Source: Kosakonia sp. H02 (GTDB lineage: Bacteria; Pseudomonadota; Gammaproteobacteria; Enterobacterales; Enterobacteriaceae). From it: a DNA stretch of 24,000 bases. The translations under genes and the position numbers were made by a program. The stretch is from the NCBI GenBank assembly GCA_030704225.1, contig CP131915.1, positions 3,836,025 to 3,860,024 of the forward strand, given 5' to 3'. Below the pieces are notes generated by a model, which worked only from the letters and a program-made list of their open reading frames with translations, made no database searches and was not told the origin of the DNA. Below are positions 2,560 to 17,890 of this stretch, piece after piece (position 1 is the stretch's first letter; each line of letters opens with the position of its first letter).

Positions 2560-2575
2560 TATTCTGTTCCTGTTA

Positions 2576-2591
2576 ATGAGCTAATACTCAT
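2576..2591. promoter_or_regulatory. Palindrome ATGAG-N6-CTCAT just upstream of the LysR start (possible autoregulatory operator)
   Basis: A perfect 5+5 inverted repeat read directly, lying 17 nt upstream of the LysR ATG at 2559. The only support is its position and symmetry. Confidence 0.2.
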
Positions 2592-2670
2592 GACACAGTA
2601 TGTCGAATTGAATGTGAAAGACAGAGTGACAGAGAAAGAAGTACGGTGGGAAAGAGCCCTGCGGGTCTAT

Positions 2671-2766
2671 GAAAAGAAAAATCCACGCCGCGGCGTGGAT
2701 TTTTGTGAAGCGAAAAGGGCAACCAGACGTTGAACAGGACGTTCATCACATTGCCATTTTTAACGA
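2671..2766 (-). pseudogene. Relic of the ychF 3' end (last 14 codons, stop lost) plus its terminator hairpin; left copy of the island-flanking direct repeat
   Basis: Aligns without gaps to 17905-18000 at an offset of 15234 bp, with about 84/96 identities by hand count. The minus-strand translation is LVKNGNVMNVLFNVW, versus [14 protein letters not shown] in the intact ychF. TGA has become TGG. Confidence 0.8.
2677..2704. terminator. Hairpin ATCCACGC-CGCG-GCGTGGAT flanked by an A-run and a T-run; probable bidirectional terminator, ending the MFS/sulfatase operon on the minus strand
   Basis: Both 8-bp stem arms are identical to the ychF terminator at 17915-17934. T-rich tracts follow on both strands. 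It lies 80 nt downstream of the MFS stop. Confidence 0.55.
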
Positions 2767-2782
2767 GTTCCACGGGTTGCTT

Positions 2783-4129
2783 TTATGATTTGGCTTGTGG
2801 TTTGCGCAACCCTGTTTTCGCTGCAAACAACAGCAGAGTGATCAGACTTACGGTCAGCATGACAATATTCACCAGTAAACCCATGCCGAAATCGCCGGTC
2901 AGATCTTTCACGTACCCCATTGCTGTTGGGCCAAAAAAACCGCCCAGGTTACCGATGGAGTTAATCACAGCGATGCCGCCAGCCGCGGCTGATCCCACCA
3001 TAAACTGTGGCGGGAGCGTCCAGAAAACCGGTAAAACGGCAAACAGACCTGCCGATGCCATGGTCAATCCGAGCACATTCAACAATGCGCCTTTACTGAA
3101 TGCGGTCAACGCTATTCCAGCGATGGCTAACACCAGCGGTACCACGGTATGGAACACGCGCTCATTACGACGATCGGATCGCTTTCCCCACCACAACAGG
3201 GCAATAACGGCGGCAATATAAGGAATGACTGACAGAAAACCGGTCGCAATAAATGAAAAACCTGCGCTTTTAATGAGCTGCGGAAGCCAGAAGTTGACTG
3301 TCGCATTAGTCATGGAAATCCCGAGGAAGATGAGCGCAAGGCTAAGCACCAGAGGATGGAAAAAAATACGAGAAACTTCAACGCTGGATGTATGCTGCCG
3401 CTGCGTTAAATCTTCATTCAAAACGTTGCGGGCAGTCTGTTTTTCCTGATCGGAAAGCCATTTAACATCCTCAACTTTTTCCGGCAGTCGCAGCCAGACA
3501 ATGATACCCAGAATCACAGCCGGAACGGCCTCAATAACAAACAGCCATTGCCATCCTTGCAGACCGCTATGCGCACCGGTGGAAAGAATGAGCCCGGAAA
3601 CCGGCCCGCCGATAATTGTCGCCAGCGGATTGGACAGTAATAAAAAGCCGACAATTTGCGCGCGCCGTTTGTTCGGAAACCATTGTGTTAAGTAATAAAG
3701 AATGCCCGGATAAAAACCCGCTTCAGCAGCGCCTAACAAAAAACGTAGGGCAAGAAAGGATTTCGCATCCCAGACAAATGCCGTACAGGCGGATAAAAGC
3801 CCCCAGGTGATCATAATCCGGGCAATCCAGCGTCGGGCACCCACGCGGGCTAACATCAAATTACTGGGCACTTCAAAAATAAAATAACTAATAAAAAATA
3901 TGCCGCTCCCCAGGCCGAATGCGGTAGCGGACAGACCGATATCTTCACGCATTGTTAATGCTGCGAAGCCCACATTCACCCGGTCGAGAAAAGCCGCAAA
4001 ATAGCAAAGCACCAAAAATGGTAATAATCGCCAGGCGATTTTATTAAATGTTTTTTGCGTCGTTTCGCTCTCTTGAAGCGGAACATACGCCGATTTACTT
4101 GTAGATGTAACGGAGGAATTTTGTGACAT
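2783..4129 (-). CDS. MFS transporter, anion:cation symporter (ACS) type (tartrate/galactonate/phthalate-permease-like)
   Basis: A 448-aa ORF with 12 TM-like segments. The N-terminal motif is FLDRVNVGFAALTM...GLGSGIFFISYFIFEVPSNLMLARVGARRWIA, characteristic of ACS-family MFS transporters. It starts 22 nt after the sulfatase stop, so the two form an operon. Confidence 0.85.
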   Translation of the reverse strand: MSQNSSVTSTSKSAYVPLQESETTQKTFNKIAWRLLPFLVLCYFAAFLDRVNVGFAALTMREDIGLSATAFGLGSGIFFISYFIFEVPSNLMLARVGARRWIARIMITWGLLSACTAFVWDAKSFLALRFLLGAAEAGFYPGILYYLTQWFPNKRRAQIVGFLLLSNPLATIIGGPVSGLILSTGAHSGLQGWQWLFVIEAVPAVILGIIVWLRLPEKVEDVKWLSDQEKQTARNVLNEDLTQRQHTSSVEVSRIFFHPLVLSLALIFLGISMTNATVNFWLPQLIKSAGFSFIATGFLSVIPYIAAVIALLWWGKRSDRRNERVFHTVVPLVLAIAGIALTAFSKGALLNVLGLTMASAGLFAVLPVFWTLPPQFMVGSAAAGGIAVINSIGNLGGFFGPTAMGYVKDLTGDFGMGLLVNIVMLTVSLITLLLFAAKTGLRKPQAKS

Positions 4130-4151
4130 TTGTCTCTGCCTTTTTATAATT

Positions 4152-5648
4152 TTAGAAACCTACCACTTGCCCCGGATCGGCCGAGGTTGCCAGTGGCGGG
4201 AAGTGAATGCCGCGCTGACCTGAAAGCCCACGATTAACAGGCAGGACAAATTCAGGCGGTTCGCAGCCTGTGAAGGTGCCGTTATTAACCCACGCCAGAT
4301 CGCTGCCGTAGAGTTCTTGTAATAGTTGTTGTTTCAATGAGCCGATGACATCGTGCATAGCCTCATGCCGGGAGAGATCGTGTTGTTCGCCCGGATCGCT
4401 CTCTAAATCAAACAGTTGGAAATGGTTTCCCGCCGGATACCAGAGAAGTTTAAAGCGCCCGTCGGTAAGCATTCGGCTGGCGAGCGGGCCTTCAAGGCTC
4501 TCGCCGTAAAACGTGCTGCGCTGCCGTTCGCCGGTCATCGATATGCCATCGCAACTTTCCGGTACGGGGATATCACACAGCGTGAGCAACGTTGGCATGA
4601 TGTCCTGGAGCCCTACCAGGCGCTTGTCACAGCGGCCGGGCTGAATGCGGTTCGAACCTGCCCGATCCACAACAATCATCGGTATTTGTGCTGAACCCTG
4701 GTAAAAATAGCGTTTGGCGTACATGCCATGGTCGCCGAGCATATCCCCGTGGTCGCTGGTGAAGACAATGATGGTGTCATCCAGGATGCCTTCTTCCCGC
4801 AACGAGCCTATCAGCAGGCGGATTTGGTGATCGATATGGGTGCATTGCGCGTAAAAGGCGCGTCGCATATCGTCGTACTGCTCTGGCGGTAGCGGCGGTT
4901 TGAGTTGTTGATTCATGGCGAGCGCATAGGGAAGGTCTGCCGCTCGTGACCATTCACTTTGTTGTGGGCCATCAATATTACGCAGGCGATAACGATCGAA
5001 ATAACTGCTCAGCGGGACAATGGGCGGGTGAGGATGAGTATAGGAAACGTACCAAAAGGCGGGACGCGTCGGGTCACGGCGGCGGATATTCTTCGCTGCC
5101 GTTTGTGTTACCCAGTTGGTCACGTGCAGCTTCTCGTCCAGGTGCCATGTCCGCCAGCTATATTCGTTATTGCTCATGCCATGCATAAATTGCTGACCGG
5201 CAACGCCATTTTCCGCGAGGAAAATTTCGTAATCATCCACGCCGCCCAGATGGCTGCGTCCCTCTTCAGCGATAAAGGCCTCTTCAAAACCGATACGATC
5301 GCGTGTGGGGTAAACGTGTAATTTCCCGGTGGCTGACGTTTGATAACCGGCACGGGCAAATGTACCTGCCAGCGTTGGCATATCCGGCATTGGCAGCGCA
5401 GGCTGAAAGATTCGATCGCCATGTTTTCGCGATGTTGTACCGGTCATGATCGTCCTGCGCGCAGGGATACAAATCGGGCAAGGTGACCAGGCATTTGGAA
5501 AATGGACCCCCGAACGAGCCAGATTGTCGATAGTCGGTGTTTCAATAAAGCGATTACCGGCAAAACCAAACAGGTGGCCTGGCCATTGATCCACGGTGAT
5601 AAACAGGACGTGGGGGCGTTTTGTTAACGTTGAATTATTGCTGTTCAT
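4152..5648 (-). CDS. Cys-type sulfatase without signal peptide (predicted cytoplasmic)
   Basis: A 498-aa ORF. The N-terminus KRPHVLFITVDQW provides the metal-binding DQ motif. The sulfatase signature C-I-P-A-R-RTIM-TG fits C-x-P-x-R-x4-TG. Later motifs TSDHGD and GKLH are present. No hydrophobic leader is visible. Confidence 0.85.
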   Translation of the reverse strand: MNSNNSTLTKRPHVLFITVDQWPGHLFGFAGNRFIETPTIDNLARSGVHFPNAWSPCPICIPARRTIMTGTTSRKHGDRIFQPALPMPDMPTLAGTFARAGYQTSATGKLHVYPTRDRIGFEEAFIAEEGRSHLGGVDDYEIFLAENGVAGQQFMHGMSNNEYSWRTWHLDEKLHVTNWVTQTAAKNIRRRDPTRPAFWYVSYTHPHPPIVPLSSYFDRYRLRNIDGPQQSEWSRAADLPYALAMNQQLKPPLPPEQYDDMRRAFYAQCTHIDHQIRLLIGSLREEGILDDTIIVFTSDHGDMLGDHGMYAKRYFYQGSAQIPMIVVDRAGSNRIQPGRCDKRLVGLQDIMPTLLTLCDIPVPESCDGISMTGERQRSTFYGESLEGPLASRMLTDGRFKLLWYPAGNHFQLFDLESDPGEQHDLSRHEAMHDVIGSLKQQLLQELYGSDLAWVNNGTFTGCEPPEFVLPVNRGLSGQRGIHFPPLATSADPGQVVGF

Positions 5649-5755
5649 TTTTTAGCTCTTTCAATGAGTTATGGCGTTTTTCTGCCGGGACAAGAAAAGC
5701 TTTCCCTGGTGGAATCATTGTCATTAAAAAGAATATGTAATAAAAAATGAGCTAC

Positions 5756-5774
5756 AAATTAGATTTCCTAATTT
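5756..5774. promoter_or_regulatory. Candidate LysR box: AAATTAG-N5-CTAATTT (contains T-N11-A)
   Basis: A perfect 7+7 inverted repeat in the divergent intergenic region between the sulfatase (start 5648) and the LysR gene (start 5806). Confidence 0.35.
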
Positions 5775-5805
5775 GTTATCTTCTAATTACATCCAGGTCA
5801 CAGTT

Positions 5806-6726
5806 ATGGATCAAAAAAGCTTGATGTCGTTTGTCGTGCTGGCCGAGGAGTTGCAATTCATCCGCGCGGCAAAGCGACTGAATGTCACGCAATCAGCGTT
5901 AAGCCAGTTAATCGCTCGCCTTGAAAAAGAGCTGGGCGTGGAGCTTTTTGAGCGCACCAAACGTAGTGTTCGCTTGTCACAATGCGGACATGTTTTTTTA
6001 CCCGAAGCGCGAAAAGTCATTGAGGATATTGATAAAGCCGCAGAAACGGCGCGCCGCGCCGCCAGGGGACAAGTGGGTAAAATTGCTGTCGCCTATGTTG
6101 ATGCTGCCCCCTTCAGCCTGCTTTCGCCGGTGATTATGCAATTTCGTAAAGCCTGGCCGGATGTCGAAATGGTATTGCATGAAATGACGTCAGCAGATCA
6201 ATTCGACGCGTTGCAACATGATCACATCGACATCGGCTTGTTGCGACCGTTATACCAGGCGGAGTGGATGCGAAGCGCGACGTTGCTGGAAGAGCCTTAC
6301 GTGGTGGCGATGCATAAAGAGCATGAGCTTGCCGCGCTGGAGGCGGTGCACATTCGCGCACTTATCAGGGAGAAATTTCTCTTTACCTCCAAAGAGAAAG
6401 CGAAATACATCTACAGCAACTGGGACGCCATATTTTCTCGCCATGGGATGTTACCGATAGTGGTTCAGGAGGTGAATCAACTCCACGCGCTGTTAAGCCT
6501 GGTTGGGGCGGGTATGGGAATGGCGTTTCTGCCGCTGTCGGTGGCGCAGAATAACAATCATGGTGTTGTCTACCGACCCATTACTGGCATTGATACACCT
6601 TGCGCGCAACTGAATATCGCCTGGCGTGATGGAACCCATAACGCGCTCATCAGTAATTTCGTTCATACTGCGAAGCAGGTAAGTGCAAGGGTGAAAAGGG
6701 ATAAAAACGTCCTGGCGGCGCATTAA
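5806..6726 (+). CDS. LysR-family transcriptional regulator
   Basis: The ORF track begins at TTG 5773. I prefer ATG 5806 (MDQKSLMSFVVLAEELQFIRAAKRLNVTQSALSQLIARLE is a canonical LysR HTH at the N-terminus), with AGGT 7 nt upstream. It is divergent from the sulfatase-MFS operon. Confidence 0.85.
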   Translation: MDQKSLMSFVVLAEELQFIRAAKRLNVTQSALSQLIARLEKELGVELFERTKRSVRLSQCGHVFLPEARKVIEDIDKAAETARRAARGQVGKIAVAYVDAAPFSLLSPVIMQFRKAWPDVEMVLHEMTSADQFDALQHDHIDIGLLRPLYQAEWMRSATLLEEPYVVAMHKEHELAALEAVHIRALIREKFLFTSKEKAKYIYSNWDAIFSRHGMLPIVVQEVNQLHALLSLVGAGMGMAFLPLSVAQNNNHGVVYRPITGIDTPCAQLNIAWRDGTHNALISNFVHTAKQVSARVKRDKNVLAAH

Positions 6727-6784: not shown

Positions 6785-8632
6785 TTATTGTGCGGAGATC
6801 CCATCTTCCATACGGTTGAACTTGTAGAAGAACGGAACGGGGTCGACAACCGGTGGATTACTGTATTTTTGCGCTTCCTGCTGCCAAAGGTTTTTCAACT
6901 CTGCCAGTTTTTCCGGATATTTCGCCGCCAGATCGGTTGATTCCGAATAATCATTGGCGGTGTTAAACAGCTGCCATTGGTCGTTTGCGTAGTCCGTGCC
7001 AATCCGGTGCATAGCCACTGCACGCCAGTCACCTTTGGTAATTGCCCTTTGACCACGCAGTTCAAAGTACTGCACATCGCGGGTTTTGGCCGTATCTGAA
7101 TTTAATGTTGGCAGGAATGATTTGCCCGCGACCGGAATTTGTTTTACGCCGTCAACGACGTCAGCAAATTTTGTCCCGGCTGCATCCAGAATGGTGGGGG
7201 CCAGGTCAATAACGCTGACGTACTGGTGGCGAATGACGCCTGGTTTCTGAATCTGTTTAGGCCAGGAGACAATCAGCGGCGTGCGGATCCCGCCTAAATA
7301 GGGCCACAACTTATAGCGACGGAAAGGCGTGCTGCCTGCATAAGCCCACGGGCGCTGATAGAGCATATCTGTATTCGGGCCACCGGCCTCATCCAGATGG
7401 GCATCCATTTCCGCGACAGTGGTGTTATCCATATAGGCACGACGGAAACCACCGTTCGGGCCACCTTCGGAAGCTGCGCCGTTATCGGTAATAAACATGA
7501 CCACGGTGTTATCAAACTGATTGGTGGATTTCAGATACTGAACCAGCCGGCCAATTTGCTCATCCGTGTGAGTAATAAAACCTGCGTATGTTTCCATAAA
7601 GCGACTGAAAACGCGTTTATGTTGTTCATCCAGCGAATCCCAGGCCGCATCACCTTTCTCACGCGGCGGGAGAACAGTATTTGCCGGTATAACGCCCAGT
7701 TTTTTCTGGCGTTCAAAACGTTCGAGGCGCAGTTTATCCCAGCCCTGGCTGTACTTGCCTTTGTAGGCATCAATATAAGATTGCGGTACTTGCAACGGTG
7801 AGTGTGCAGCCCCAAAAGCGAGATAGACAAATTTTGGCTTATCCGACTTTTCTTTGAAGGCACCGATAGCGTGATCGACCAGATCAACAGAGAGGTGATA
7901 GCCCGGTTTGTCCGGTTTGGGGAGTTCTTTATTATTTTCCACTAAATCAGGGTGATATTGCGGTGAATGACCACTCAGGAAGCCGTAGTAGTAATCAAAT
8001 CCTTTCTGTCTCGGCCAGAATTTTTGGTTACGTTCAGGCGCATCTTTGTATTCAGGTGCGATATGCCATTTTCCCAGCGCATAGGTTGAGTAGCCCGCCT
8101 GGTGCAGGGCCTGGGCCATGGTTTGCGCATTCATTGGCATTTCACCGCTGTTGGCTGGGCCTGCTCCCAGCGGCGTTTCCGGCGCAGGTGCATTCGTGCC
8201 TTTCGGCGGCAACTCTTCCATATTGACAGTCTGATTGTTGCGTCCGGTCATCAACGCAGCACGCGTCGGCGCGCACATGGAACTGGTATCGAACCGGTTA
8301 TAGCGCAGTCCCGAATACGCCAGCAAATCGATATTAGGCGTTTTAATCTCAGAGCCAAATGCGCCGATGTCCCCAAACCCCATGTCATCAAGCACAATCA
8401 TCACGACGTTGGGTTGTTGCTTCGTTTTCTCTGCGGTGGGCTGGGTCTGTCCGGCGGCCGTGAAGGACGCCATCAGCATACCTGCCATAGCGGTGCCCGT
8501 AGCCAGAATGCTGAGTAACTTTTTCCGCGAGGGAAAAAGGGGGCTATTACTTTGTTGAACGTCATTGTTCTGGTGTGAAGCGGCAAAAATTTCCTGCCTG
8601 TCTTTATAAAGCGATGTAACGAGCGTTCTCAT
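6785..8632 (-). CDS. Secreted Cys-type arylsulfatase (AtsA-like)
   Basis: A 615-aa ORF. Motifs include NVVMIVLDDMGFGDIGAFGSEIKTPNID, the signature C-A-P-T-R-AALM-TG, and GKWH. The hydrophobic leader LLSILATGTAMAGMLMASFTAAG follows a long N-region. AAGGAA sits 7 nt upstream of the ATG. It starts 33 nt after the porin stop. Confidence 0.85.
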   Translation of the reverse strand: MRTLVTSLYKDRQEIFAASHQNNDVQQSNSPLFPSRKKLLSILATGTAMAGMLMASFTAAGQTQPTAEKTKQQPNVVMIVLDDMGFGDIGAFGSEIKTPNIDLLAYSGLRYNRFDTSSMCAPTRAALMTGRNNQTVNMEELPPKGTNAPAPETPLGAGPANSGEMPMNAQTMAQALHQAGYSTYALGKWHIAPEYKDAPERNQKFWPRQKGFDYYYGFLSGHSPQYHPDLVENNKELPKPDKPGYHLSVDLVDHAIGAFKEKSDKPKFVYLAFGAAHSPLQVPQSYIDAYKGKYSQGWDKLRLERFERQKKLGVIPANTVLPPREKGDAAWDSLDEQHKRVFSRFMETYAGFITHTDEQIGRLVQYLKSTNQFDNTVVMFITDNGAASEGGPNGGFRRAYMDNTTVAEMDAHLDEAGGPNTDMLYQRPWAYAGSTPFRRYKLWPYLGGIRTPLIVSWPKQIQKPGVIRHQYVSVIDLAPTILDAAGTKFADVVDGVKQIPVAGKSFLPTLNSDTAKTRDVQYFELRGQRAITKGDWRAVAMHRIGTDYANDQWQLFNTANDYSESTDLAAKYPEKLAELKNLWQQEAQKYSNPPVVDPVPFFYKFNRMEDGISAQ

Positions 8633-8665
8633 TGCGTGATTCCTTATTAATAAAAGGTATCGGGT

Positions 8666-9946
8666 TTAAAAATCCCACTGGAATTCAATACGGGTAATAT
8701 CGTCGGCTTTCTCTTCCCAGGTATAAGACAGCCATGCGCGCAGGTTAGGCGAGCCAAACCAATATTCCAGCTGCGGGGTAATGCCAGTGCCGCCAAATTC
8801 GTCGTAAGTGTTGTAGAGGATATAACTGAACCCGGAGGCTTTTTCAGGGAACATTTGCGCGCCAACCGTTGCTGAATAACCGAGGCCGCCTTTTGCCCAG
8901 CCGCGTTTTTTAATCAGCGCTTTGGACTCGCTGTTATCGCGTTTTGAATAAGCAGTCTGACCAACAAGACGATATTGTTTCCCGATATTGGCATACCCCG
9001 CCAGCGCCCAGGTATAAAGCGAGGTGCTGTCGCGCGCATATTTTGAATCGGCATTTTTAGTAGTCTGACCAACAAGACGATATTGTTTCCCGATATTGGC
9101 ATACCCCGCCAGCGCCCAGGTATAAAGCGAGGTGCTGTCGCGCGCATATTTTGAATCGGCATTTTTAGTGTCGCCACGTTGTGTTGCGGCGATATCGACG
9201 TTACCCACGATACTGGTGCTGCCAACCGTGACAGAAGGTTGGCCGTTATGCATTGAGGCGTATACGCCATAATCACCTGGACGGAAACTGTAGAGATCAT
9301 CCGTTTGATAACCGATATCGACGCCAAAGATTTTGGATGTGCGATCGTAGCTGCCTGCGAGGAAGAGATTGTCAGGAAATTGTTTCTTATAAAGAAACTT
9401 GCCCGCGTTTTTTACACCTGCATCGGCCTGGGTATCCAGTAATCCCTGCGAACCCATATCGACCGCAAAGAAGCTCCATGTCGCGGTATGTTTACCGTAC
9501 ATAAACGCCCCAAGATCGTCATGGGAGATACCTACCCGGAATTGTTCCCATTTGACGGTATCATCAAAATCATTAAATTCGTTGATGGTTTCTCCATGCA
9601 GACGGCTATAGTTTTCCTGTCCCCGCATCCAGAAATCACCTACCAGCGCCGTTTTATCCGCAAAGTATGTTTTTCCCCGAAGTCGGCCATTCAATTGAAG
9701 ATATTCAGCATTACGGGCATTTTCATTCGTGTATGAACCCTTGACGCGAAATGTCGCATACCAGCGAGAGTCTTTCGACAGGTCGGTCAACGCAGGGACA
9801 GTGCTCCCTTTATTCGCGGAAAGGTAATTTTCTACTACATCGTCACGTTTGCTGGATGTATTTTCTTCAGCGTATACCGAACCAGCAAAGAGTGTTGAGG
9901 CAATCAGTAAAGAGAGAAAAGTACGTGTTGTTTTTATGTTCATCAT
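8666..9946 (-). CDS. Outer-membrane beta-barrel porin-like protein (family not recognised by eye)
   Basis: I prefer the start at MMNIKTTRTFLSLLIASTLFAGSVYA/EENT, a classic Sec signal with an AxA-like cleavage site, over the track start at 10063. The sequence has alternating aromatic/polar beta-strand character and a C-terminal ...EFQWDF with terminal Phe. Confidence 0.7.
   Translation of the reverse strand: MMNIKTTRTFLSLLIASTLFAGSVYAEENTSSKRDDVVENYLSANKGSTVPALTDLSKDSRWYATFRVKGSYTNENARNAEYLQLNGRLRGKTYFADKTALVGDFWMRGQENYSRLHGETINEFNDFDDTVKWEQFRVGISHDDLGAFMYGKHTATWSFFAVDMGSQGLLDTQADAGVKNAGKFLYKKQFPDNLFLAGSYDRTSKIFGVDIGYQTDDLYSFRPGDYGVYASMHNGQPSVTVGSTSIVGNVDIAATQRGDTKNADSKYARDSTSLYTWALAGYANIGKQYRLVGQTTKNADSKYARDSTSLYTWALAGYANIGKQYRLVGQTAYSKRDNSESKALIKKRGWAKGGLGYSATVGAQMFPEKASGFSYILYNTYDEFGGTGITPQLEYWFGSPNLRAWLSYTWEEKADDITRIEFQWDF
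8954..9169. repeat. Perfect 2 x 108-bp in-frame tandem duplication inside the porin gene
   Basis: 8954-9061 and 9062-9169 are identical base for base when compared by hand. They encode TKNADSKYARDSTSLYTWALAGYANIGKQYRLVGQT twice. There is AGT microhomology at the unit ends. Confidence 0.95.
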
Positions 9947-10177
9947 AGTTAGCCAGAGTTCTTGTCTTCCGGGAGCAATAAATGCGTCGGCCGGTTGAAC
10001 AATAATTATAAAACAGTGCGTGACAGAGTTTGACGTATTAAAACGCCATTGCCTGTGCGCCATTCAAATTAACCAAAGCGGAATCATCCTTAATGTCTGT
10101 AATAAAATACTGCGACGTTAGTTGTTCGATATCGTTAATATTTTTCTCCTCTGGTACTGGGCGTGTAACTAATGGGC

Positions 10178-10231
10178 AAAAAAAAACCTAAATCGGGAGA
10201 GATAAACAACATCTTCACCGATTTAGGTTTT
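10178..10231 (-). terminator. Rho-independent terminator overlapping the minus-strand RAT
   Basis: The minus-strand RNA reads AAAACCUAAAUCGG-21 nt loop-CCGAUUUAGGUUUU followed by a U-run (A9 at 10178-10186 on the plus strand). The 5' arm shares AAAACC with the RAT. Confidence 0.75.
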
Positions 10232-10255
10232 GCCTGTTAAGAACAGTAACAATCC
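10226..10255 (-). promoter_or_regulatory. RAT (ribonucleic antiterminator) target of a BglG/SacY/LicT-family protein, minus strand
   Basis: The reverse complement is GGATTGTTACTGTTCTTAACAGGCAAAACC. It matches the GGATTGTTACTG...CAGGCAAAACC RAT consensus as I remember it, and is 30/30 identical to the plus-strand copy at 10464-10493. Confidence 0.8.
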
Positions 10256-10268
10256 TTAATCTGATGCA

Positions 10269-10297
10269 CTTATAAAATTAACAGATCGTGTTAGCAA
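10269..10297 (-). promoter_or_regulatory. Candidate sigma70 promoter for the porin-sulfatase transcript
   Basis: The minus strand reads TTGCTA-17 nt-TATAAG. The predicted start is near 10262, only about 7 nt before the RAT. Confidence 0.4.
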
Positions 10298-10323
10298 GCT
10301 CTTTTTAGCGTTAATCATCAGTC

Positions 10324-10339
10324 TGTGAGATGACTCACT
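10324..10339. promoter_or_regulatory. Candidate CRP site TGTGA-gatgac-TCACT
   Basis: Matches TGTGA-N6-TCACA at 9/10 positions. Its centre is about 70 bp upstream of the predicted minus-strand start, a class-I-like spacing. Confidence 0.45.
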
Positions 10340-10391
10340 TTTTATTATTTATCCTAAAAATAGTTTGGCTTCAGAAAGATCGGCTTGTTAA

Positions 10392-10407
10392 TGCGATCAG
10401 TGTCACA
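10392..10407. promoter_or_regulatory. Candidate CRP site TGCGA-tcagtg-TCACA
   Basis: Matches the consensus at 9/10 positions. Its centre is about 60 bp upstream of the predicted plus-strand start, a class-I-like spacing. Confidence 0.4.
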
Positions 10408-10424
10408 TTTCTTAATGTGCGCCA

Positions 10425-10452
10425 TTGCATACAACAAGCTGCCTGTTAATCT
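10425..10452 (+). promoter_or_regulatory. Candidate sigma70 promoter for the sulfatase-maturase-antiterminator transcript
   Basis: Reads TTGCAT-16 nt-TAATCT. The predicted start is near 10459, about 5 nt before the RAT, mirroring the geometry of the minus-strand promoter. The -10 element is weak. Confidence 0.3.
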
Positions 10453-10463
10453 CGCCAGCAGTT

Positions 10464-10493
10464 GGATTGTTACTGTTCTTAACAGGCAAAACC
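10464..10493 (+). promoter_or_regulatory. RAT target of a BglG-family antiterminator, plus strand
   Basis: GGATTGTTACTGTTCTTAACAGGCAAAACC. Its 3' AAAACC is part of the 5' arm of the terminator that follows. Confidence 0.8.
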
Positions 10494-10540
10494 AGATAAG
10501 TTTTTTCCTTCTTGAGGATCAGCTTATCTGGTTTTTTTTT
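10488..10540 (+). terminator. Rho-independent terminator overlapping the RAT, 30 nt before the sulfatase ATG
   Basis: AAAACCAGATAAG...CTTATCTGGTTTT is a 13-bp stem with a small inner TCCT/AGGA helix, and it runs into T9-10. Confidence 0.75.
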
Positions 10541-10570
10541 GGGATTTATCGGTCAGGCAGGGCTGAAATA

Positions 10571-12301
10571 ATGAAAAAAATACTTGTCCCGGGATTGCTG
10601 TCAATATGCATTGCTCAGCAGGTACAGGCAGCGGATTTTTCCGCACAGGCCAATAGCCAGCGTCCAAATATTGTGTTGATCCTTGCCGAAGATATGAATC
10701 CCCGGTTGGGCGCGTACGGCGATCCCAATGCGGTAACGCCGAATATTGATGCGCTGGCGAAAGAGTCCGTGTTGTTTACCAACGCATTTACAATGGCGGG
10801 CGTCAGCGCACCTTCCCGCGCGGGGTTGATTACCGGCATGCCTCAACAGGCCACCGGTTTGCTGCATATGAGAACCGCGACCTATAAACATAAATATCAG
10901 GGCGTACCCCCCTCTTATGTGAAAGCTTATCCTGAATTATTGCGTGCAAACGGCTATTTCACCTATAACGACACGAAAACTGATTACCAGTTTACGGACG
11001 GGCATGCGGACGTCGGGCCATTTACCATCTGGAGCGCACATGGATCTTATTCTAATCTGGATGATTTGAGGGTGCCGGCCGCGTGGGAAAATTATGACCT
11101 GAAAGGAAAACCTTTCTTCATTAATCTCAACCCGCAGATAACGCACGAGTCAGGCATTTTTACTGCTGAAAATGTCGCTAAAATTCAGCCCGCTTTTAAA
11201 GAATTACCCGCTTTGTGGGATAAGCTACGCGCGCATTATACGCTGCCCGACATAGATCCAGCGAAGCTACAACTTGATCCGTACTGGAAAGACACAAAAC
11301 AGGTCAGAAATGAACTGGCATTGTTTTACAAGAATATCAGCGTCATGGATCAGCAAGTGGGGAATATAATAAACAGGCTTAAGAAAGACGGACTTTGGAA
11401 TAACACTATCGTTATTTTTGCTGCTGATAACGGAGATGGTTTGCCTCGTCATAAACGTGAGGGTTATGACTCCGGGACGCATGTTCCATTAATTATTCAT
11501 GTCCCTGAAAAATATACTCCTGTTGGCTGGAAATCAGCGGGCGAAAAAGACGACAGGTTACTTTCATTTGAAGATTTAGCACCGACAATTCTTGGTTTTA
11601 GTGGCGCAAAAATACCTTTTTATATGAAGGGAATTAACTTATCTCAGGATAATCCTCCTGAGAGAAAGTATATTTTCTCCGCCAGAGGGCGTATGGATGA
11701 GATTTACCTTAGGTCATACTATGTCCGCGATAAGCACTTCCAGTATGTGCAGAATATAGACAAAACGCCCAATGGCGAACATATTGCATTTCGTGATGTT
11801 CTGGATACCACCAGAGCACTGAATGAGGCGCATCAGCATGGCACGCTTAATGCAGAACAGGAAGCGTGGTTTAGCCGCAAACCTGCTGAGGAACTTTACG
11901 ATCTGCAACAGGATCCCTGGCAATTGCACAACATTGCCGGCAATACCGCCGCCGAACCCACGCTCACGCTGTTTCGTCAGAAACTGGAGCAATGGCGTAA
12001 CGAAACCAACGATATGGGGGTCATCCCCGAAGAGCAAATGGTTAAAGATTTACAGGACGCAAATGGCCAGGCGCGTGTGACGCTTCCCCCGGTTGCGGAA
12101 CTTAATCCCCTGACCAACAAAATTTATATTGCTAACCGGACGGATGGCGCCTCTATTGGTTACAGTCTGGACGGTAAAAACTGGGAGCTGTATAGCGGCG
12201 CGTTCCCGGCACCATCAGGGATTAATTCTCTCTTCATTAAAGCGGTTCGTTATGGCTGGAAGGAGAGTGAAGTTCAGCAGTTTGAGTTATCCAGACAATA
12301 A
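10571..12301 (+). CDS. Secreted Ser-type sulfatase (iduronate-2-sulfatase-like N-terminal region) with an extra C-terminal domain
   Basis: I prefer the start at ATG 10571 (MKKILVPGLLSICIAQQVQA/AD is a Sec signal). The track start at 10385 would read through the RAT and terminator. Motifs include NIVLILAEDMNPRLGAYGD and the signature S-A-P-S-R-AGLI-TG, with Ser in place of Cys. Confidence 0.85.
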   Translation: MKKILVPGLLSICIAQQVQAADFSAQANSQRPNIVLILAEDMNPRLGAYGDPNAVTPNIDALAKESVLFTNAFTMAGVSAPSRAGLITGMPQQATGLLHMRTATYKHKYQGVPPSYVKAYPELLRANGYFTYNDTKTDYQFTDGHADVGPFTIWSAHGSYSNLDDLRVPAAWENYDLKGKPFFINLNPQITHESGIFTAENVAKIQPAFKELPALWDKLRAHYTLPDIDPAKLQLDPYWKDTKQVRNELALFYKNISVMDQQVGNIINRLKKDGLWNNTIVIFAADNGDGLPRHKREGYDSGTHVPLIIHVPEKYTPVGWKSAGEKDDRLLSFEDLAPTILGFSGAKIPFYMKGINLSQDNPPERKYIFSARGRMDEIYLRSYYVRDKHFQYVQNIDKTPNGEHIAFRDVLDTTRALNEAHQHGTLNAEQEAWFSRKPAEELYDLQQDPWQLHNIAGNTAAEPTLTLFRQKLEQWRNETNDMGVIPEEQMVKDLQDANGQARVTLPPVAELNPLTNKIYIANRTDGASIGYSLDGKNWELYSGAFPAPSGINSLFIKAVRYGWKESEVQQFELSRQ

Positions 12302-12357
12302 AAAGAAACGGTTATCCGTCAATGAAACAGCGCACATGGGCAGCAGCGAGGTAAGCA

Positions 12358-13584
12358 ATGAGCCAGACGTTCACCAATTTCCAGTTGATGGCAAAACCTT
12401 CCGGTTCTGTTTGCAACATTGACTGTACCTACTGTTTTTATCTGGAGAAAGAGCATCTCTATCCGGAACGAAAAGCGCGCTGGAAGATGGATGCCACTAC
12501 GCTTGAAAACTACGTCCGAAAAAATATCCAGTCACAAAATAATGAGGTAGTGGATTTTCTCTGGCAGGGCGGAGAACCCACCTTAATGGGGCTGGATTAC
12601 TTTCGTGAAGCTGTGCGCTTACAAAATCAGTACCGTGGCCTTAAACACATTAATAATTACTTCCAGACCAACGGTACGAATCTGGATGACGATTGGGCGG
12701 TTTTTCTCAAAGAGAACAATTTTCTGGTCGGCTTGTCGATAGATGGCGACAGGATCAGCAATGACACTTACCGGCTCACCCGTTCAGGCAAAAGCACCTT
12801 TGATGCGGTGATGAACGGCCTTGAAGCGCTTAAACGGCATAAAGTGGAGTTCAATACGCTTACCGTTGTGAATGCCGAAAACGTTAAACGACCGATGGAT
12901 GTTTATAATTTTCTGAAACGGATCGGCAGTCGCTATATGCAGTTTATTCCGCTGGTTGAAAGGGCTGCCGCAAAGCCGGATGCCAATGGATTGACCCTGA
13001 TTCAGCCTGATTTCTCCGGGCAGTGTAGTGTTACCGACTGGTCGGTGCCTGCAAAAGCCTGGGGGCAATTTATGAACTGCATCTTTGATCATTGGATCCA
13101 ACACGATATCGGTAACGTTTTTGTCATGAATTTTGAGCAAACGCTGGCGAAGATGTGCGGGCAACTCAGTGCCTGTGTGATTAATGAAACGTGCGGCACA
13201 AACCTTATTGTTGAAGCGAACGGTGATGTTTACTCATGCGATCATTTCGTTTATCCAGAGAACAAACTCGGCAATCTCAACGAAGATGATTTGCTGGCGC
13301 TGGTGAATAAGCCCGAAAACATTGCCTTTGGGCAAAATAAAAAGAACGGCATCAGTAAAGATTGCCTCAATTGTATGGTTCGTCCAGTGTGCAACGGCGG
13401 TTGCCCCAAACATCGTTTTGAAATTTCCAGCGATGGTCGGCCCAATAAGAACTATTTGTGCGAAGGGTTTGCAACCCATTTGTTTCATGTCGTCCCCAAA
13501 ATGAAGACGTTGCTCTCTATGCTGCAATCCGATATGCCGCCAGGAAAAATTCGTCGGGAGATAAAGCAACACTACTACCGGTGA
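12358..13584 (+). CDS. Anaerobic sulfatase-maturating enzyme (radical SAM, SPASM domain)
   Basis: A 408-aa ORF. It has the CNIDCTYC (CxxxCxxC) radical-SAM cluster motif near the N-terminus, GGEPTL, and C-terminal Cys clusters CDHFVYP...CLNCMVRPVCNGGCPKHR. GAGGT lies upstream of the ATG. It is directly downstream of the Ser-type sulfatase. Confidence 0.9.
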   Translation: MSQTFTNFQLMAKPSGSVCNIDCTYCFYLEKEHLYPERKARWKMDATTLENYVRKNIQSQNNEVVDFLWQGGEPTLMGLDYFREAVRLQNQYRGLKHINNYFQTNGTNLDDDWAVFLKENNFLVGLSIDGDRISNDTYRLTRSGKSTFDAVMNGLEALKRHKVEFNTLTVVNAENVKRPMDVYNFLKRIGSRYMQFIPLVERAAAKPDANGLTLIQPDFSGQCSVTDWSVPAKAWGQFMNCIFDHWIQHDIGNVFVMNFEQTLAKMCGQLSACVINETCGTNLIVEANGDVYSCDHFVYPENKLGNLNEDDLLALVNKPENIAFGQNKKNGISKDCLNCMVRPVCNGGCPKHRFEISSDGRPNKNYLCEGFATHLFHVVPKMKTLLSMLQSDMPPGKIRREIKQHYYR

Positions 13585-13617
13585 AGATATTTCCACCGAT
13601 CCAGATTGTTTGCTTAG

Positions 13618-14469
<852 letters not shown>

Positions 14470-14492
14470 TCTCCTCCGGGCTATCTAAAAAA

Positions 14493-14522
14493 GGATTGTT
14501 ACTGCGTTAAGCAGGCAAAACC
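14493..14522 (+). promoter_or_regulatory. RAT target, third copy
   Basis: GGATTGTTACTGCGTTAAGCAGGCAAAACC, located 24 nt after the antiterminator stop codon. Confidence 0.85.
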
Positions 14523-14562
14523 TGAGCGCGGCTCTTTTTAAGAGCTGTTCTCGGGTTTTTTT
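14518..14562 (+). terminator. Rho-independent terminator overlapping RAT 3
   Basis: AAACCTGAG pairs with CTCGGGTTT (one G-U pair), with an inner GCTCT/AGAGC helix. It is followed by T7-A-T6. Confidence 0.75.
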
Positions 14563-14575
14563 ATTTTTTACCTAA

Positions 14576-17890
<3,315 letters not shown>

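What the first reader, a model, noticed from the sequence alone, without database searches (positions are those of the whole stretch)
10178..10540. Two identical, outward-facing BglG-type RAT/terminator switches in one divergent control region, gating sulfatase and porin genes
Seen in the sequence:
- The 30-mer GGATTGTTACTGTTCTTAACAGGCAAAACC occurs at 10464-10493 (+). Its exact reverse complement occurs at 10226-10255.
- In both copies the 3' AAAACC is the start of the 5' arm of a long hairpin followed by a 9-10 nt U-run (10488-10540 on +, 10231-10178 on -).
- A third copy, GGATTGTTACTGCGTTAAGCAGGCAAAACC, with the same overlap geometry lies at 14493-14562.

Established knowledge: RAT overlapping a terminator is the signature target of CAT-domain antiterminators (BglG, SacY, LicT). 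Binding stabilises the RAT and prevents terminator formation. The protein's activity is set by PTS phosphorylation of its PRDs.

What is unusual: the first genes behind the two identical switches are not sugar-PTS genes. One side leads to a Ser-type sulfatase and its radical-SAM maturase. The other leads to an outer-membrane porin and an arylsulfatase. I am not aware of sulfatase maturation being described as under RAT/PRD antitermination control. A mirror pair of 100% identical RATs sharing one promoter region is also an unusually tidy regulon design.
Basis: partly seen in the sequence, partly recalled or inferred. Interest (0 to 1): 0.85.

Follow-up and report, generated by a model that had tools for sequence, protein, structure and literature searches.

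The report
BglG antiterminator switches gating sulfatase genes
Three standard BglG-type RNA switches in a Kosakonia genome put two secreted sulfatases, their maturation enzyme and a new type of porin under the same sugar-sensing control as a beta-glucoside uptake system. This wiring recurs in many gamma-proteobacteria and points to an undescribed pathway for eating sulfated plant glucosides.

Summary
The 30-mer occurs exactly at 10464-10493 (+) and 10226-10255 (-), with a variant at 14493-14522. Each overlaps a strong terminator hairpin followed by a U-run.

These are BglG/LicT-type RAT-terminator attenuators. Outside the apical loop they match the two E. coli bgl RATs. The canonical hairpin covaries across 24 RATs. 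A CAT-PRD-PRD antiterminator, BglF and a phospho-beta-glucosidase sit in the locus.

- a Ser-type sulfatase with anSME and bglG on one side;
- a porin-fold protein with no Pfam family, plus an AtsA-like arylsulfatase, on the other.

The wiring is not a one-off. RAT-gated sulfatase, anSME and porin genes recur in a Citrobacter-like contig, Superficieibacter, Salmonella, Proteus, Serratia, Vibrio, Celerinatantimonas and metagenome contigs.

The 100% identity of the mirror pair is specific to this genome. It most likely reflects short-patch gene conversion.

The mechanism is ordinary. The regulon content appears undescribed and suggests a pathway of periplasmic desulfation, PTS uptake and cleavage for sulfated beta-glucosides. 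The substrate is unknown; glucosinolates are one speculative candidate.

This is a new variant of a known kind, of moderate interest.

The parts
10464..10493 (+). RAT 1 (ribonucleic antiterminator) on the sulfatase side
   Evidence: Exact 30-mer. Covariance model R1 scores it 44.1 bits, E about 2e-9. It matches the E. coli bgl t1/t2 RATs outside the apical stem-loop.
10488..10540 (+). Intrinsic terminator 1; its 5' arm overlaps RAT 1 through AAAACC, and it ends in U9
   Evidence: Folding energy -22.4 kcal/mol, z -5.06. Inverted repeat I3. Stem shows compensatory changes in L013, L004 and L005. Only about 30 nt separate it from the ATG at 10571.
10226..10255 (-). RAT 2 on the porin side, identical to RAT 1
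   Evidence: 44.1 bits.
10178..10231 (-). Intrinsic terminator 2; overlaps RAT 2 and ends in U9
   Evidence: Folding energy -23.1 kcal/mol, z -7.23. Orthologous stems in L013 and L004.
10256..10463 (.). Divergent promoter region of 208 bp. It holds CRP-like sites at 10324-10339 (TGTGA-N6-TCACT) and 10392-10407 (TGCGA-N6-TCACA), and a conserved minus-strand sigma-70 promoter: TTGCTA (10296-10291), 17-nt spacer by alignment columns (16 nt by these window coordinates), TATAAG (10274-10269).
   Evidence: Read from the sequence and from the four-genome alignment A2. TGTGA..TCAC, GCAAG and TTATAAAA are invariant from Kosakonia to Salmonella. Promoter function and the start site (about 10262) are inferred. 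The consensus scan found no promoter here.
10571..12301 (+). Ser-type formylglycine sulfatase, 576 aa, with a Sec signal peptide; S1_8-like
   Evidence: PF00884 at 5e-39. SAPSR motif at residue 79. Best solved relatives are S1_8A/B sulfatases at 3e-57.
12358..13584 (+). Anaerobic sulfatase-maturating enzyme (radical SAM/SPASM)
   Evidence: TIGR03942 at 486 bits against a cutoff of 349.
13636..14469 (+). BglG/LicT antiterminator (CAT-PRD1-PRD2)
   Evidence: NF046042 (LicT) 387 bits and NF007295 (BglG) 378 bits. PF03123 and PF00874 x2. His99, His158 and His206 are invariant in alignment A4. Identical to WLI76462.1 of Kosakonia sp. H02.
14493..14522 (+). RAT 3, between bglG and bglF
   Evidence: 46.2 bits.
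14517..14562 (+). Intrinsic terminator 3; overlaps RAT 3
   Evidence: Folding energy -25.6 kcal/mol, z -6.08.
14612..16483 (+). BglF, the beta-glucoside PTS EIIBCA (transporter and sensor)
   Evidence: NF007335 at 1064 bits against a cutoff of 894.
16496..17890 (+). GH1 6-phospho-beta-glucosidase
   Evidence: NF007356 at 640 bits; PF00232.
8666..9946 (-). Outer-membrane porin-fold protein of a small family with no Pfam domain. It is 426 aa here and 381-391 aa in the full-length homologues. It has a signal peptide and a C-terminal Phe.
   Evidence: No Pfam or NCBIfam hit. Only 27 relatives among 5.8 billion proteins. AF2 pLDDT 78, all-beta. Foldseek top hits are OmpF, OmpU, OmpC and PhoE at probability 1.0. 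The start at 9946 is inferred from the signal peptide.
6785..8632 (-). Cys-type (CAPTR) AtsA-like arylsulfatase, S1_4-like, with a signal-like N-terminus. Second gene of the porin-side operon.
   Evidence: PF00884 at 3e-64. P. aeruginosa AtsA (1HDH) matches at 1.6e-83 over the full length. Motif. The exact start codon is uncertain.

Best explanation
The three elements are BglG/LicT-type RAT-terminator attenuators in the 5' leaders of three transcription units of one regulon in Kosakonia sp. H02.

Proposed mechanism:
- Two back-to-back promoters lie in the 208-bp spacer. They are probably CRP-dependent.
- Each promoter starts a transcript that forms a RAT within its first ~40 nt.
- Unless the RAT is stabilised, the overlapping and much more stable terminator forms and transcription stops.
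- When the EII transporter BglF is busy transporting a beta-glucoside, it stops phosphorylating the locus-encoded BglG. BglG then dimerises and binds the RATs, and RNA polymerase reads through.

What read-through expresses:
- On one side, a periplasmic Ser-type sulfatase, its radical-SAM maturase and bglG itself. This is positive autoregulation, as in the E. coli bgl operon.
- On the other side, a dedicated porin and an AtsA-like arylsulfatase.
- Behind the third switch, bglF and the phospho-beta-glucosidase.

Together this reads as a catabolic pathway for sulfated beta-glucosides: entry through the porin, desulfation in the periplasm, PTS uptake with phosphorylation, then cleavage. The desulfated product is the signal sensed by BglF, so basal sulfatase expression primes a feed-forward loop.

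What is shown and what is inferred:
- Shown: the sequence and structure of the switches, the gene identities, and the conservation of the wiring.
- Inferred: promoter positions, which antiterminator acts on the RATs, the inducer logic, and the substrate.
- The perfect identity of the two divergent RATs is best explained by a short-patch gene conversion. It overwrote the apical part of the sulfatase-side RAT with the porin-side version.
For: RAT identity:
- Exact matches.
- The E. coli bgl t1/t2 RATs recovered from LF82 differ only in the apical stem-loop.
- On 24 RATs the canonical hairpin is 96.3% paired, and 6 of 9 pairs show compensatory changes. 0 of 500 shuffles reach these values, and slid controls collapse to 29-60% paired.
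- Covariance model R1 finds 36 hits at E<0.01 in 329 kb. Those I mapped onto gene calls lie in the intergenic region directly upstream of a gene.

Terminator overlap and exclusivity. RAT alone is -1.9 to -5.2 kcal/mol; the terminators are -22 to -26.

Trans-acting factors: CAT plus two PRDs with the conserved His, BglF, and the GH1 enzyme.

Conservation of the wiring (RAT directly upstream of sulfatase, anSME or porin genes):
- L013, a Citrobacter-like contig.
- Superficieibacter L004 and Salmonella L005.
- Proteus L007 and Serratia entomophila L008.
- Vibrio sp. ABG19 L011.
- Celerinatantimonas L014 and V. gazogenes L015.
- Metagenome contigs L017, L019 and L020.
- Gene order and chromosomal site differ between genera while the RAT gating persists.

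Other points:
- The terminator stem on the sulfatase side shows compensatory substitutions between genera, and only ~30 nt separate the U-run from the start codon.
- CRP-like boxes and a -35/-10 pair are conserved upstream of the porin-side RAT.
- Gene conversion: in the closest relative L013 the two RATs differ. The Kosakonia sequence resembles L013's porin-side RAT (2 differences), while the flanking terminators stay orthologous on each side.
Against: - There are no expression, start-site or binding data; everything is computational.
- The porin-side leader is long (~230 nt between the U-run and the start codon). It contains a TATAAT that is conserved in L013, so some porin transcription could start downstream of the terminator.
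- The + strand promoter is not well defined.
- The RAT nucleotides that contact the protein are the same as in generic bgl RATs, so a paralogous antiterminator elsewhere in the genome could act here.
- Serratia and Vibrio sp. ABG19 have RAT-gated sulfatase loci with no bglG within 10 kb.
- Orthologous sulfatase-anSME-porin clusters in Tatumella lack RATs, so the coupling is not obligatory.
- The substrate is unknown. The nearest solved relatives of the two sulfatases are carrageenan and N-sulfoglucosamine sulfatases and a generic arylsulfatase. These do not identify a sulfated glucoside.
Confidence: 0.85

Rival explanations
1. The RATs are genuine, but they are served mainly by another BglG-family paralogue encoded elsewhere in the genome, or by several through cross-talk. 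The sulfatases would then respond to a different sugar signal from the adjacent BglF.
For: All three RATs carry the generic enterobacterial bgl consensus shared with E. coli t1/t2. The Serratia entomophila and Vibrio sp. ABG19 loci have RAT-gated sulfatase genes with no antiterminator within 10 kb.
Against: In 8 of the loci examined, a bglG-bglF(-GH1) set sits next to the RAT-gated sulfatase genes despite rearrangements. In Kosakonia, bglG is co-transcribed behind the sulfatase-side switch.
Confidence: 0.1
2. The downstream genes, especially the porin and arylsulfatase, are transcribed chiefly from promoters located after the terminators. The RAT-terminators would then have little control over them.
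For: A ~230-nt leader lies between the porin-side U-run and the start codon. It contains a TATAAT box conserved in L013.
Against: On the sulfatase side only ~30 nt separate the U-run from the ATG, leaving no room for a promoter. In V. gazogenes and Proteus the porin gene follows its RAT-terminator(s) by only 40-90 nt. The RAT and terminator show purifying and compensatory evolution across families. The consensus scan found no promoter in the leader.
Confidence: 0.1
3. The perfect 30-bp inverted repeat marks a mobile element or recombination site (terminal inverted repeats) and is not a pair of RNA switches.
For: A 100% identical inverted repeat with 208-bp spacing. The whole island sits at different chromosomal sites in different genera.
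Against: Identity ends exactly at the RAT borders. Each arm is followed by its own, different terminator. The orthologous arms in L013, L004, L005 and L017 are non-identical RATs with compensatory stem changes. No transposase lies between or beside the arms.
Confidence: 0.02
4. The sulfatases are sulfur-scavenging enzymes, as with classical AtsA/AtsB, which are sulfate-repressed and tyramine- or CysB-controlled. Their position behind RATs would be a secondary or incidental layer, not evidence for carbon catabolism of sulfated glucosides.
For: The 615-aa enzyme is a close full-length relative of P. aeruginosa AtsA, a sulfate-starvation protein (background knowledge). LysR regulators lie nearby at 1654-2559 and 5773-6726.
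Against: The sulfatase, anSME and porin genes stay linked to bglG, PTS and GH1 genes through extensive rearrangement in about ten loci. RATs sit directly in their leaders. The LysR genes flank a separate module of cytoplasmic sulfatase plus MFS transporter that has no RAT.
Confidence: 0.08

Closest known systems
E. coli bglGFB(H) operon, with RAT/terminator t1 upstream of bglG and t2 between bglG and bglF
   Same: The RAT sequence is the same outside the apical stem-loop, and the AAAACC overlap with a terminator is the same. The BglG of E. coli LF82 is 58% identical, with conserved PRD histidines. BglF and GH1 BglB are present. bglG lies behind the first switch, giving autoregulation. CRP-type sites lie upstream; CRP is the main bgl activator according to PMC9499468 (listed). 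A porin (bglH) belongs to the E. coli operon (background knowledge).
   Different: Here a sulfatase and anSME are inserted between switch 1 and bglG. A second, divergent switch drives a porin of an unrelated family with no Pfam domain, plus an arylsulfatase. There are three switches around a shared bidirectional promoter instead of two in series.
B. subtilis SacY with sacB (levansucrase) and LicT with licS/bglS (secreted beta-glucanase)
   Same: RAT-terminator control is extended to an exported enzyme that acts on the external substrate upstream of the PTS step (review PMC12591593; PMC5393181, listed).
   Different: Those enzymes are glycoside hydrolases or transferases in Gram-positives. Here the exported enzymes are sulfatases that need a cytoplasmic radical-SAM maturase, which is itself gated, together with an outer-membrane channel.
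Klebsiella atsBA (Ser-type arylsulfatase plus AtsB maturase) and P. aeruginosa atsA
   Same: A Ser-type sulfatase is paired with an anSME/AtsB-type maturase (TIGR03942). The second enzyme is AtsA-like (1HDH at 1.6e-83).
   Different: The classical systems are regulated by sulfur supply or tyramine at transcription initiation (background knowledge). Here control is by PTS-linked antitermination.
Streptococcus pneumoniae accessory region with a cellobiose PTS and a putative sulfatase (PMC3283741)
   Same: A beta-glucoside/cellobiose-type PTS is genomically coupled to a sulfatase (abstract).
   Different: That region is in a Gram-positive and its abstract lists a ROK family protein, not a BglG/RAT system. 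The abstract lists no porin and no anSME.

Membership tests
BglG/SacY/LicT RAT-terminator attenuator | RAT consensus sequence of about 29-30 nt (GGAUUGUUACUG...CAGGCAAAACC) | tested here: met
   Exact consensus flanks in all three copies. They match the E. coli t1/t2 RATs. Covariance model scores are 44-46 bits, E about 1e-9.
BglG/SacY/LicT RAT-terminator attenuator | An imperfect hairpin (lower stem, two internal loops, upper stem) supported by covariation | tested here: met
   On 24 RATs, 96.3% of cells are paired and 6 of 9 pairs show double changes. 0 of 500 shuffles match, and slid controls fall to 29-60%. Some of these sequences were used to define the pattern, so this is a partly fitted test.
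BglG/SacY/LicT RAT-terminator attenuator | The 3' part of the RAT overlaps the 5' arm of an intrinsic terminator, so the two folds are mutually exclusive | tested here: met
   The terminator is favoured by 7.5-7.8 kcal/mol. With the RAT forced, the residual hairpin is uncoupled from the U-run.
BglG/SacY/LicT RAT-terminator attenuator | Located in a 5' leader, downstream of a promoter and upstream of the regulated gene | tested here: inconclusive
   The position upstream of the genes is clear. A conserved TTGCTA / 17-nt spacer / TATAAG promoter sits about 7 nt before the porin-side RAT, and there are two CRP-like boxes. However, the scan tool called no promoter, the + strand promoter is ill-defined, and there are no start-site data.
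BglG/SacY/LicT RAT-terminator attenuator | A cognate antiterminator with an N-terminal CAT RNA-binding domain and two PRDs carrying phosphorylatable histidines | tested here: met
   PF03123 at 7e-24 and PF00874 x2. LicT and BglG equivalog models score above their cutoffs. His99, His158 and His206 are invariant.
BglG/SacY/LicT RAT-terminator attenuator | A PTS EII sensor of the glucose/beta-glucoside class in the regulon | tested here: met
   BglF EIIBCA, NF007335 at 1064 bits against a cutoff of 894.
BglG/SacY/LicT RAT-terminator attenuator | Protein-dependent read-through of the terminator; RNA binding | not testable with these tools
   Needs EMSA, in-vitro transcription or reporter fusions.
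Formylglycine (S1) sulfatases with an anSME maturase | C/S-x-P-x-R active-site motif, a sulfatase domain, and a radical-SAM/SPASM maturase | tested here: met
   SAPSR in the 576-aa protein, CAPTR in the 615-aa protein. PF00884 in both. TIGR03942 at 486 bits against a cutoff of 349.
General (OmpF/OmpC/OmpU-type) porins | A trimeric 16-stranded beta-barrel fold, and sequence membership in Porin_1/Porin_4 | tested here: inconclusive
   The fold criterion is met: the AF2 model has pLDDT 78, and Foldseek gives probability 1.0 and TM 0.58-0.69 to OmpF, OmpU and OmpC. Sequence membership is not met: there is no Pfam or NCBIfam hit. Oligomeric state was not tested.

The most novel reading that the evidence does not exclude
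This conserved RAT-gated module (porin, two periplasmic sulfatases, anSME, BglG, BglF and GH1) is the missing bacterial route for sulfated plant beta-glucosides. The strongest version is the desulfo-glucosinolate route: periplasmic desulfation of glucosinolates, PTS uptake of the desulfo-thioglucoside, and phospho-beta-glucosidase cleavage to nitriles. A 2018 review states that the sulfatases of this route are still unidentified (PMC6767122). 6'-O-sulfated aryl glucosides would be an alternative substrate. Desulfation would be a prerequisite for both sensing and PTS phosphorylation.
Probability: 0.2. Interest if true: 0.75.

Novelty: new variant of a known kind. Interest (0 to 1): 0.5.

Why it matters
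Sulfatases in Proteobacteria are usually viewed as sulfur-scavenging enzymes controlled at transcription initiation. Here two secreted sulfatases and their maturase are wired to a PTS-sensing RNA switch as part of a carbon-catabolic regulon, and the wiring is conserved from Enterobacteriaceae to Vibrionaceae.

This gives three things:
1. A clean, testable candidate locus for the utilisation of sulfated beta-glucosides by plant-associated and gut bacteria. Such compounds include glucosinolates, sulfated phenolic glucosides and similar plant metabolites.
2. A previously unclassified porin family whose genomic context suggests a function.
3. A natural example of how a BglG regulon expands by copying a 30-nt RAT plus terminator in front of new operons. 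It includes divergent pairs and tandem double attenuators.

Tried and rejected
- The genome-contig scan with the 576-aa sulfatase returned only three distant hits, in a Puniceicoccaceae MAG, a Bacteroidetes MAG and Robiginitalea.
- Exact look-ups of the window sulfatase and of P0001 (C. amalonaticus) found nothing.
- The megablast search of 8600-14700, which spans the switches and the sulfatase, anSME, bglG and porin genes, found no match in 5,426 complete E. coli genomes. Only bglG matches there, at 67% identity.
- Rfam has no RAT family. It gave only sub-threshold chance-level hits, including SpF19 at RAT 3.
- The consensus promoter scan found nothing in the 208-bp spacer. The promoter proposals rest on conservation only.
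- The mobile-element reading of the inverted repeat was rejected (see rival explanations).
- Tatumella ptyseos and T. terrea (L009, L010) have sulfatase-anSME-porin clusters without RATs. The metagenome locus L018 holds a relative of the porin but also has no RAT hit. The coupling is therefore frequent but not universal.
- Substrate inference from solved sulfatase structures was uninformative: S1_8 carrageenan and sulfamidase enzymes, and S1_4 AtsA. The only named glucosinolate sulfatase, from an insect, is S1_10, a different subfamily.
- Full-text searches combining sulfatase with BglG, antiterminator, RAT or beta-glucoside PTS found no description of this wiring. The library lacks most subscription-journal papers.
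Full report
**Observation**

The 30-mer GGATTGTTACTGTTCTTAACAGGCAAAACC is present exactly at 10464-10493 (+) and, as a reverse complement, at 10226-10255. No match appeared in 100 shuffles. A third copy that differs only in the apical part lies at 14493-14522. The inverted repeat is exactly 30 nt long, and the flanks diverge immediately.

In each copy the last six bases (AAAACC) open a long hairpin that ends in GG plus U7-U9. Folding energies are -22.4, -23.1 and -25.6 kcal/mol, with z-scores of -5 to -7 against dinucleotide shuffles. Forcing the RAT pairs costs 7.5-7.8 kcal/mol and leaves the residual hairpin six unpaired bases away from the U-run. The RAT alone is worth only -1.9 to -5.2 kcal/mol. 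The two folds are therefore mutually exclusive, and the terminator is the default.

**Source and gene map**

BglG, BglF, BglB, YchF and DauA of the window are identical to WLI76462-WLI76468 of Kosakonia sp. H02.

| Coordinates | Strand | Gene or product |
|---|---|---|
| 1654-2559 | - | LysR-family regulator |
| 2783-4129 | - | MFS transporter |
| 4152-5648 | - | Cytoplasmic Cys-type sulfatase |
| 5773-6726 | + | LysR-family regulator |
| 6785-8632 | - | 615-aa Cys-type (CAPTR) sulfatase |
| 8666-9946 | - | Secreted protein with no family hit |
| 10178-10540 | both | Control region |
| 10571-12301 | + | 576-aa Ser-type (SAPSR) sulfatase with signal peptide |
| 12358-13584 | + | anSME (TIGR03942, 486 bits) |
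| 13636-14469 | + | BglG |
| 14493-14562 | + | RAT 3 and terminator 3 |
| 14612-16483 | + | BglF |
| 16496-17890 | + | GH1 phospho-beta-glucosidase |
| from 17957 | - (ychH +) | ychF, pth, ychH, dauA, prs, ispE backbone |

- The 615-aa enzyme aligns over its full length with P. aeruginosa AtsA (1HDH, 1.6e-83).
- The 576-aa enzyme is nearest to S1_8 sulfatases.
- The unannotated protein belongs to a family of only 27 detectable members, 381-391 aa apart from three N-terminally shorter entries.
- An AlphaFold model of this protein (pLDDT 78, pTM 0.76) is an all-beta barrel. Its best PDB matches are OmpF, OmpU, OmpC and PhoE at probability 1.0.

**Identity of the switches**

The E. coli bgl RATs, recovered from strain LF82, are GGATTGTTACTGCATTCGCAGGCAAAACC (t1) and GGATTGTTACCGCACTAAGTGGGCAAAACC (t2). 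Both have the same AAAACC/terminator overlap. The window RATs differ from these only in the upper stem and loop, and they differ by compensatory changes.

I aligned 24 distinct RATs from the window, E. coli and nine related loci and tested the published hairpin (lower GG/CC, UUG/CAA, upper 4-bp stem).
- 96.3% of cells are paired.
- 6 of 9 pairs show double changes.
- The covariation score is 0.312 against 0.125 in shuffles, and 0 of 500 shuffles reach it.
- Pairing falls to 29-60% when the partner is slid.

A covariance model built from this alignment finds 36 hits at E<0.01 in 329 kb of window plus loci. Those I mapped onto gene calls lie in the intergenic region directly upstream of a gene.

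The locus BglG has a CAT domain (7e-24) and two PRDs. It passes both the LicT and the BglG equivalog models. It keeps the three histidines that align with His101, His160 and His208 of E. coli BglG. Rfam has no family for RATs.

**Conservation of the wiring**

The closest sulfatase and porin relatives were traced to their contigs. All coordinates below are locus coordinates.

| Locus | Source | RAT-terminator positions and gated genes |
|---|---|---|
| L013 | SRA contig, 86-90% aa identity, Citrobacter amalonaticus-like | Same layout as the window, three RAT-terminators |
| L004 | Superficieibacter sp. | Same layout, but next to mutS instead of ychF |
| L005 | Salmonella enterica | Divergent RAT pair between two sulfatase genes; a separate RAT-bglG-RAT-bglF-GH1-porin operon on the other strand; bglF is split there |
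| L007 | Proteus sp. | One RAT before porin-sulfatase-anSME-sulfatase; one before bglG; a tandem pair before bglF |
| L008 | Serratia entomophila | A RAT before anSME, a LamB-type porin and the sulfatase |
| L011 | Vibrio sp. ABG19 | A RAT upstream of the sulfatase |
| L014 | Celerinatantimonas diazotrophica | Tandem RATs before EIIBC-GH1-porin-sulfatase; another before anSME |
| L015 | Vibrio gazogenes | RATs before bglG and, divergently, before anSME; in tandem before porin-sulfatase |
| L017 | Metagenome contig | Five RATs in 10 kb, including a divergent pair before anSME and the sulfatase |
| L019 | Metagenome contig | A weaker RAT before EIIBC-porin-sulfatase-anSME |

Tatumella has sulfatase-anSME-porin clusters without RATs, and L018, which holds a relative of the porin, also has none. 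The coupling survives reshuffling of gene order, strand and chromosomal site across Enterobacteriaceae, Morganellaceae, Yersiniaceae, Vibrionaceae and Celerinatantimonadaceae. This is the strongest available argument that it is functional.

On the sulfatase side the terminator stem itself shows compensatory substitutions between genera. Only about 30 nt separate the U-run from the start codon.

**The mirror pair**

Divergent RAT pairs are a recurring feature of this module (L013, L004, L005, L017/L020, L015). In none of these relatives are the two arms identical.

In L013 the porin-side RAT is GGATTGTTACTGTCCTGAACAGGCAAAACC, which is 2 differences from the Kosakonia sequence. The sulfatase-side RAT is GGATTGTTACAGCATGTAAATGCAGGCAAAACC. 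The downstream terminators are clearly orthologous to those of Kosakonia on each side.

The simplest reading is a short-patch gene conversion in the Kosakonia lineage. It would have been anchored on the shared flanks GGATTGTTAC and CAGGCAAAACC, and it replaced the apical 10-13 nt of the sulfatase-side RAT. This is an inference. It is an evolutionary detail and not a design feature.

**Promoter region**

In the four-genome alignment of the spacer, the following are invariant from Kosakonia to Salmonella:
- a CRP-like TGTGA-N6-TCAC box at 10324-10339;
- GCAAG, which reads as TTGC on the minus strand (a -35 element);
- TTATAAAA, which reads as TATAAG on the minus strand (a -10 element).

The alignment columns put 17 nt between the two hexamers; the window coordinates I give for them (10296-10291 and 10274-10269) leave 16. 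Either way the predicted start site is about 7 nt before the porin-side RAT.

A second CRP-like box (10392-10407) is conserved in the three closest genomes. The + strand -10 element is uncertain. The consensus scan called nothing in the spacer. CRP dependence would match E. coli bgl (PMC9499468, listed). All of this is inference.

**Caveat on the porin side**

The leader between the U-run and the start codon is about 230 nt long. It holds a TATAAT conserved in L013, so an internal promoter cannot be excluded there.

**Proposed mechanism**

Established for the family: BglF phosphorylates and inactivates BglG when no substrate is present. During transport BglG is dephosphorylated, dimerises and binds the RAT, which blocks terminator formation.

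Inferred for this locus: all three switches carry the same protein-contact nucleotides and should respond together. Read-through would express the porin, both periplasmic sulfatases, the cytoplasmic maturase, BglG itself, BglF and the phospho-beta-glucosidase.

The coherent reading is a pathway for sulfated beta-glucosides. Desulfation happens in the periplasm, and the desulfated glucoside is both the PTS substrate and the inducing signal. Basal read-through would therefore prime a positive loop.

The substrate is unknown. One enzyme is AtsA-like, which suggests an aryl or aglycone sulfate. The other is S1_8-like, which suggests a sugar O- or N-sulfate.

Glucosinolates are one candidate. A review notes that the sulfatases of the bacterial desulfo-glucosinolate route are unidentified, and that 6-phospho-beta-glucosidases and a PTS have been implicated (PMC6767122; also PMC8660893). 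The only named glucosinolate sulfatase, from an insect, is S1_10. I rate the glucosinolate reading at about 0.2.

**Comparison with known systems, and novelty**

The switches are members of the BglG/SacY/LicT RAT-terminator class. Every testable defining feature is met. Only the promoter position and the biochemistry remain open.

Placing exported substrate-processing enzymes (sacB, licS) or a porin (E. coli bglH) under such control is known (background knowledge).

What seems new is the cargo: formylglycine sulfatases, their radical-SAM maturase and an unclassified porin family. The bidirectional architecture also seems new. I found no paper that describes it, within the limits of the library. 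A cellobiose PTS plus sulfatase island exists in pneumococcus, but its abstract lists a ROK family protein and no BglG/RAT system (PMC3283741).

**Verdict**

The finding is real. It is correctly interpreted in mechanism and conserved. It is a new variant of a known kind, and the unusual part is the regulon content and not the RNA device. Interest is 0.5.

Noticed in passing
window 8954-9169 (- strand gene 8666-9946): There is an exact 108-bp tandem duplication (2.0 copies, 100% identity) inside the porin gene. It adds 36 in-frame residues (TKNADSKYARDSTSLYTWALAGYANIGKQYRLVGQT, twice). All homologues lack the extra copy; the full-length ones are 381-391 aa. The region has pLDDT 25-37 in the model. 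It is either a very recent duplication, adding roughly one beta-hairpin, or an assembly artefact.
   Followed up: partly
window 1654-6726: A second, RAT-less sulfatase module lies next to the locus: two LysR-family regulators, a cytoplasmic Cys-type sulfatase (CIPAR, no signal peptide) and an MFS transporter. The sulfatase, MFS and one LysR regulator recur beside the RAT-gated module in L013 and L004. The module may handle a sulfated aglycone or another sulfated compound inside the cell.
   Followed up: partly
window 9947-10177 (- strand): An unusually long leader of ~230 nt lies between the porin-side terminator and the start codon. It is moderately conserved in L013 and L004 and contains TTTTATAATTATTGTTCAACCGG, which includes a perfect TATAAT. 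It could be an internal promoter or another regulatory element.
   Followed up: partly
L015 9771-9960; L014 6636-6830; L007 14273-14580: Tandem double RAT-terminator attenuators (two complete switches in series) sit upstream of porin or PTS genes in Vibrio gazogenes, Celerinatantimonas and Proteus. This arrangement should sharpen the response.
   Followed up: no
window 14486-14568: Rfam family RF02430 (Streptococcus sRNA SpF19) gives a sub-threshold match (25.7 bits, E 0.17) exactly on RAT 3 plus its terminator. This hints that the 'sRNA' family may itself be a terminated RAT leader.
   Followed up: no
window ~6785-17890 versus L004, L005: The whole sulfatase-bgl island sits at different chromosomal sites in different genera: next to ychF in Kosakonia, next to mutS in Superficieibacter, and between mdtQ/yohP and dusC in Salmonella. 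Gene order is also shuffled. This is consistent with horizontal transfer of a metabolic island.
   Followed up: partly
L005 15792-17651: In the Salmonella enterica isolate, the bglF gene of the module is split into two ORFs of 330 and 270 aa. It is probably a frameshifted pseudogene, which would leave BglG unregulated by its sensor.
   Followed up: no
L009 ~9660-9770: A run of about 14 tandem copies of the 9-bp unit AACTGATTA (a CTGATTAA-containing repeat) lies in the promoter region upstream of the Tatumella ptyseos sulfatase-anSME-porin operon, which lacks a RAT.
   Followed up: no
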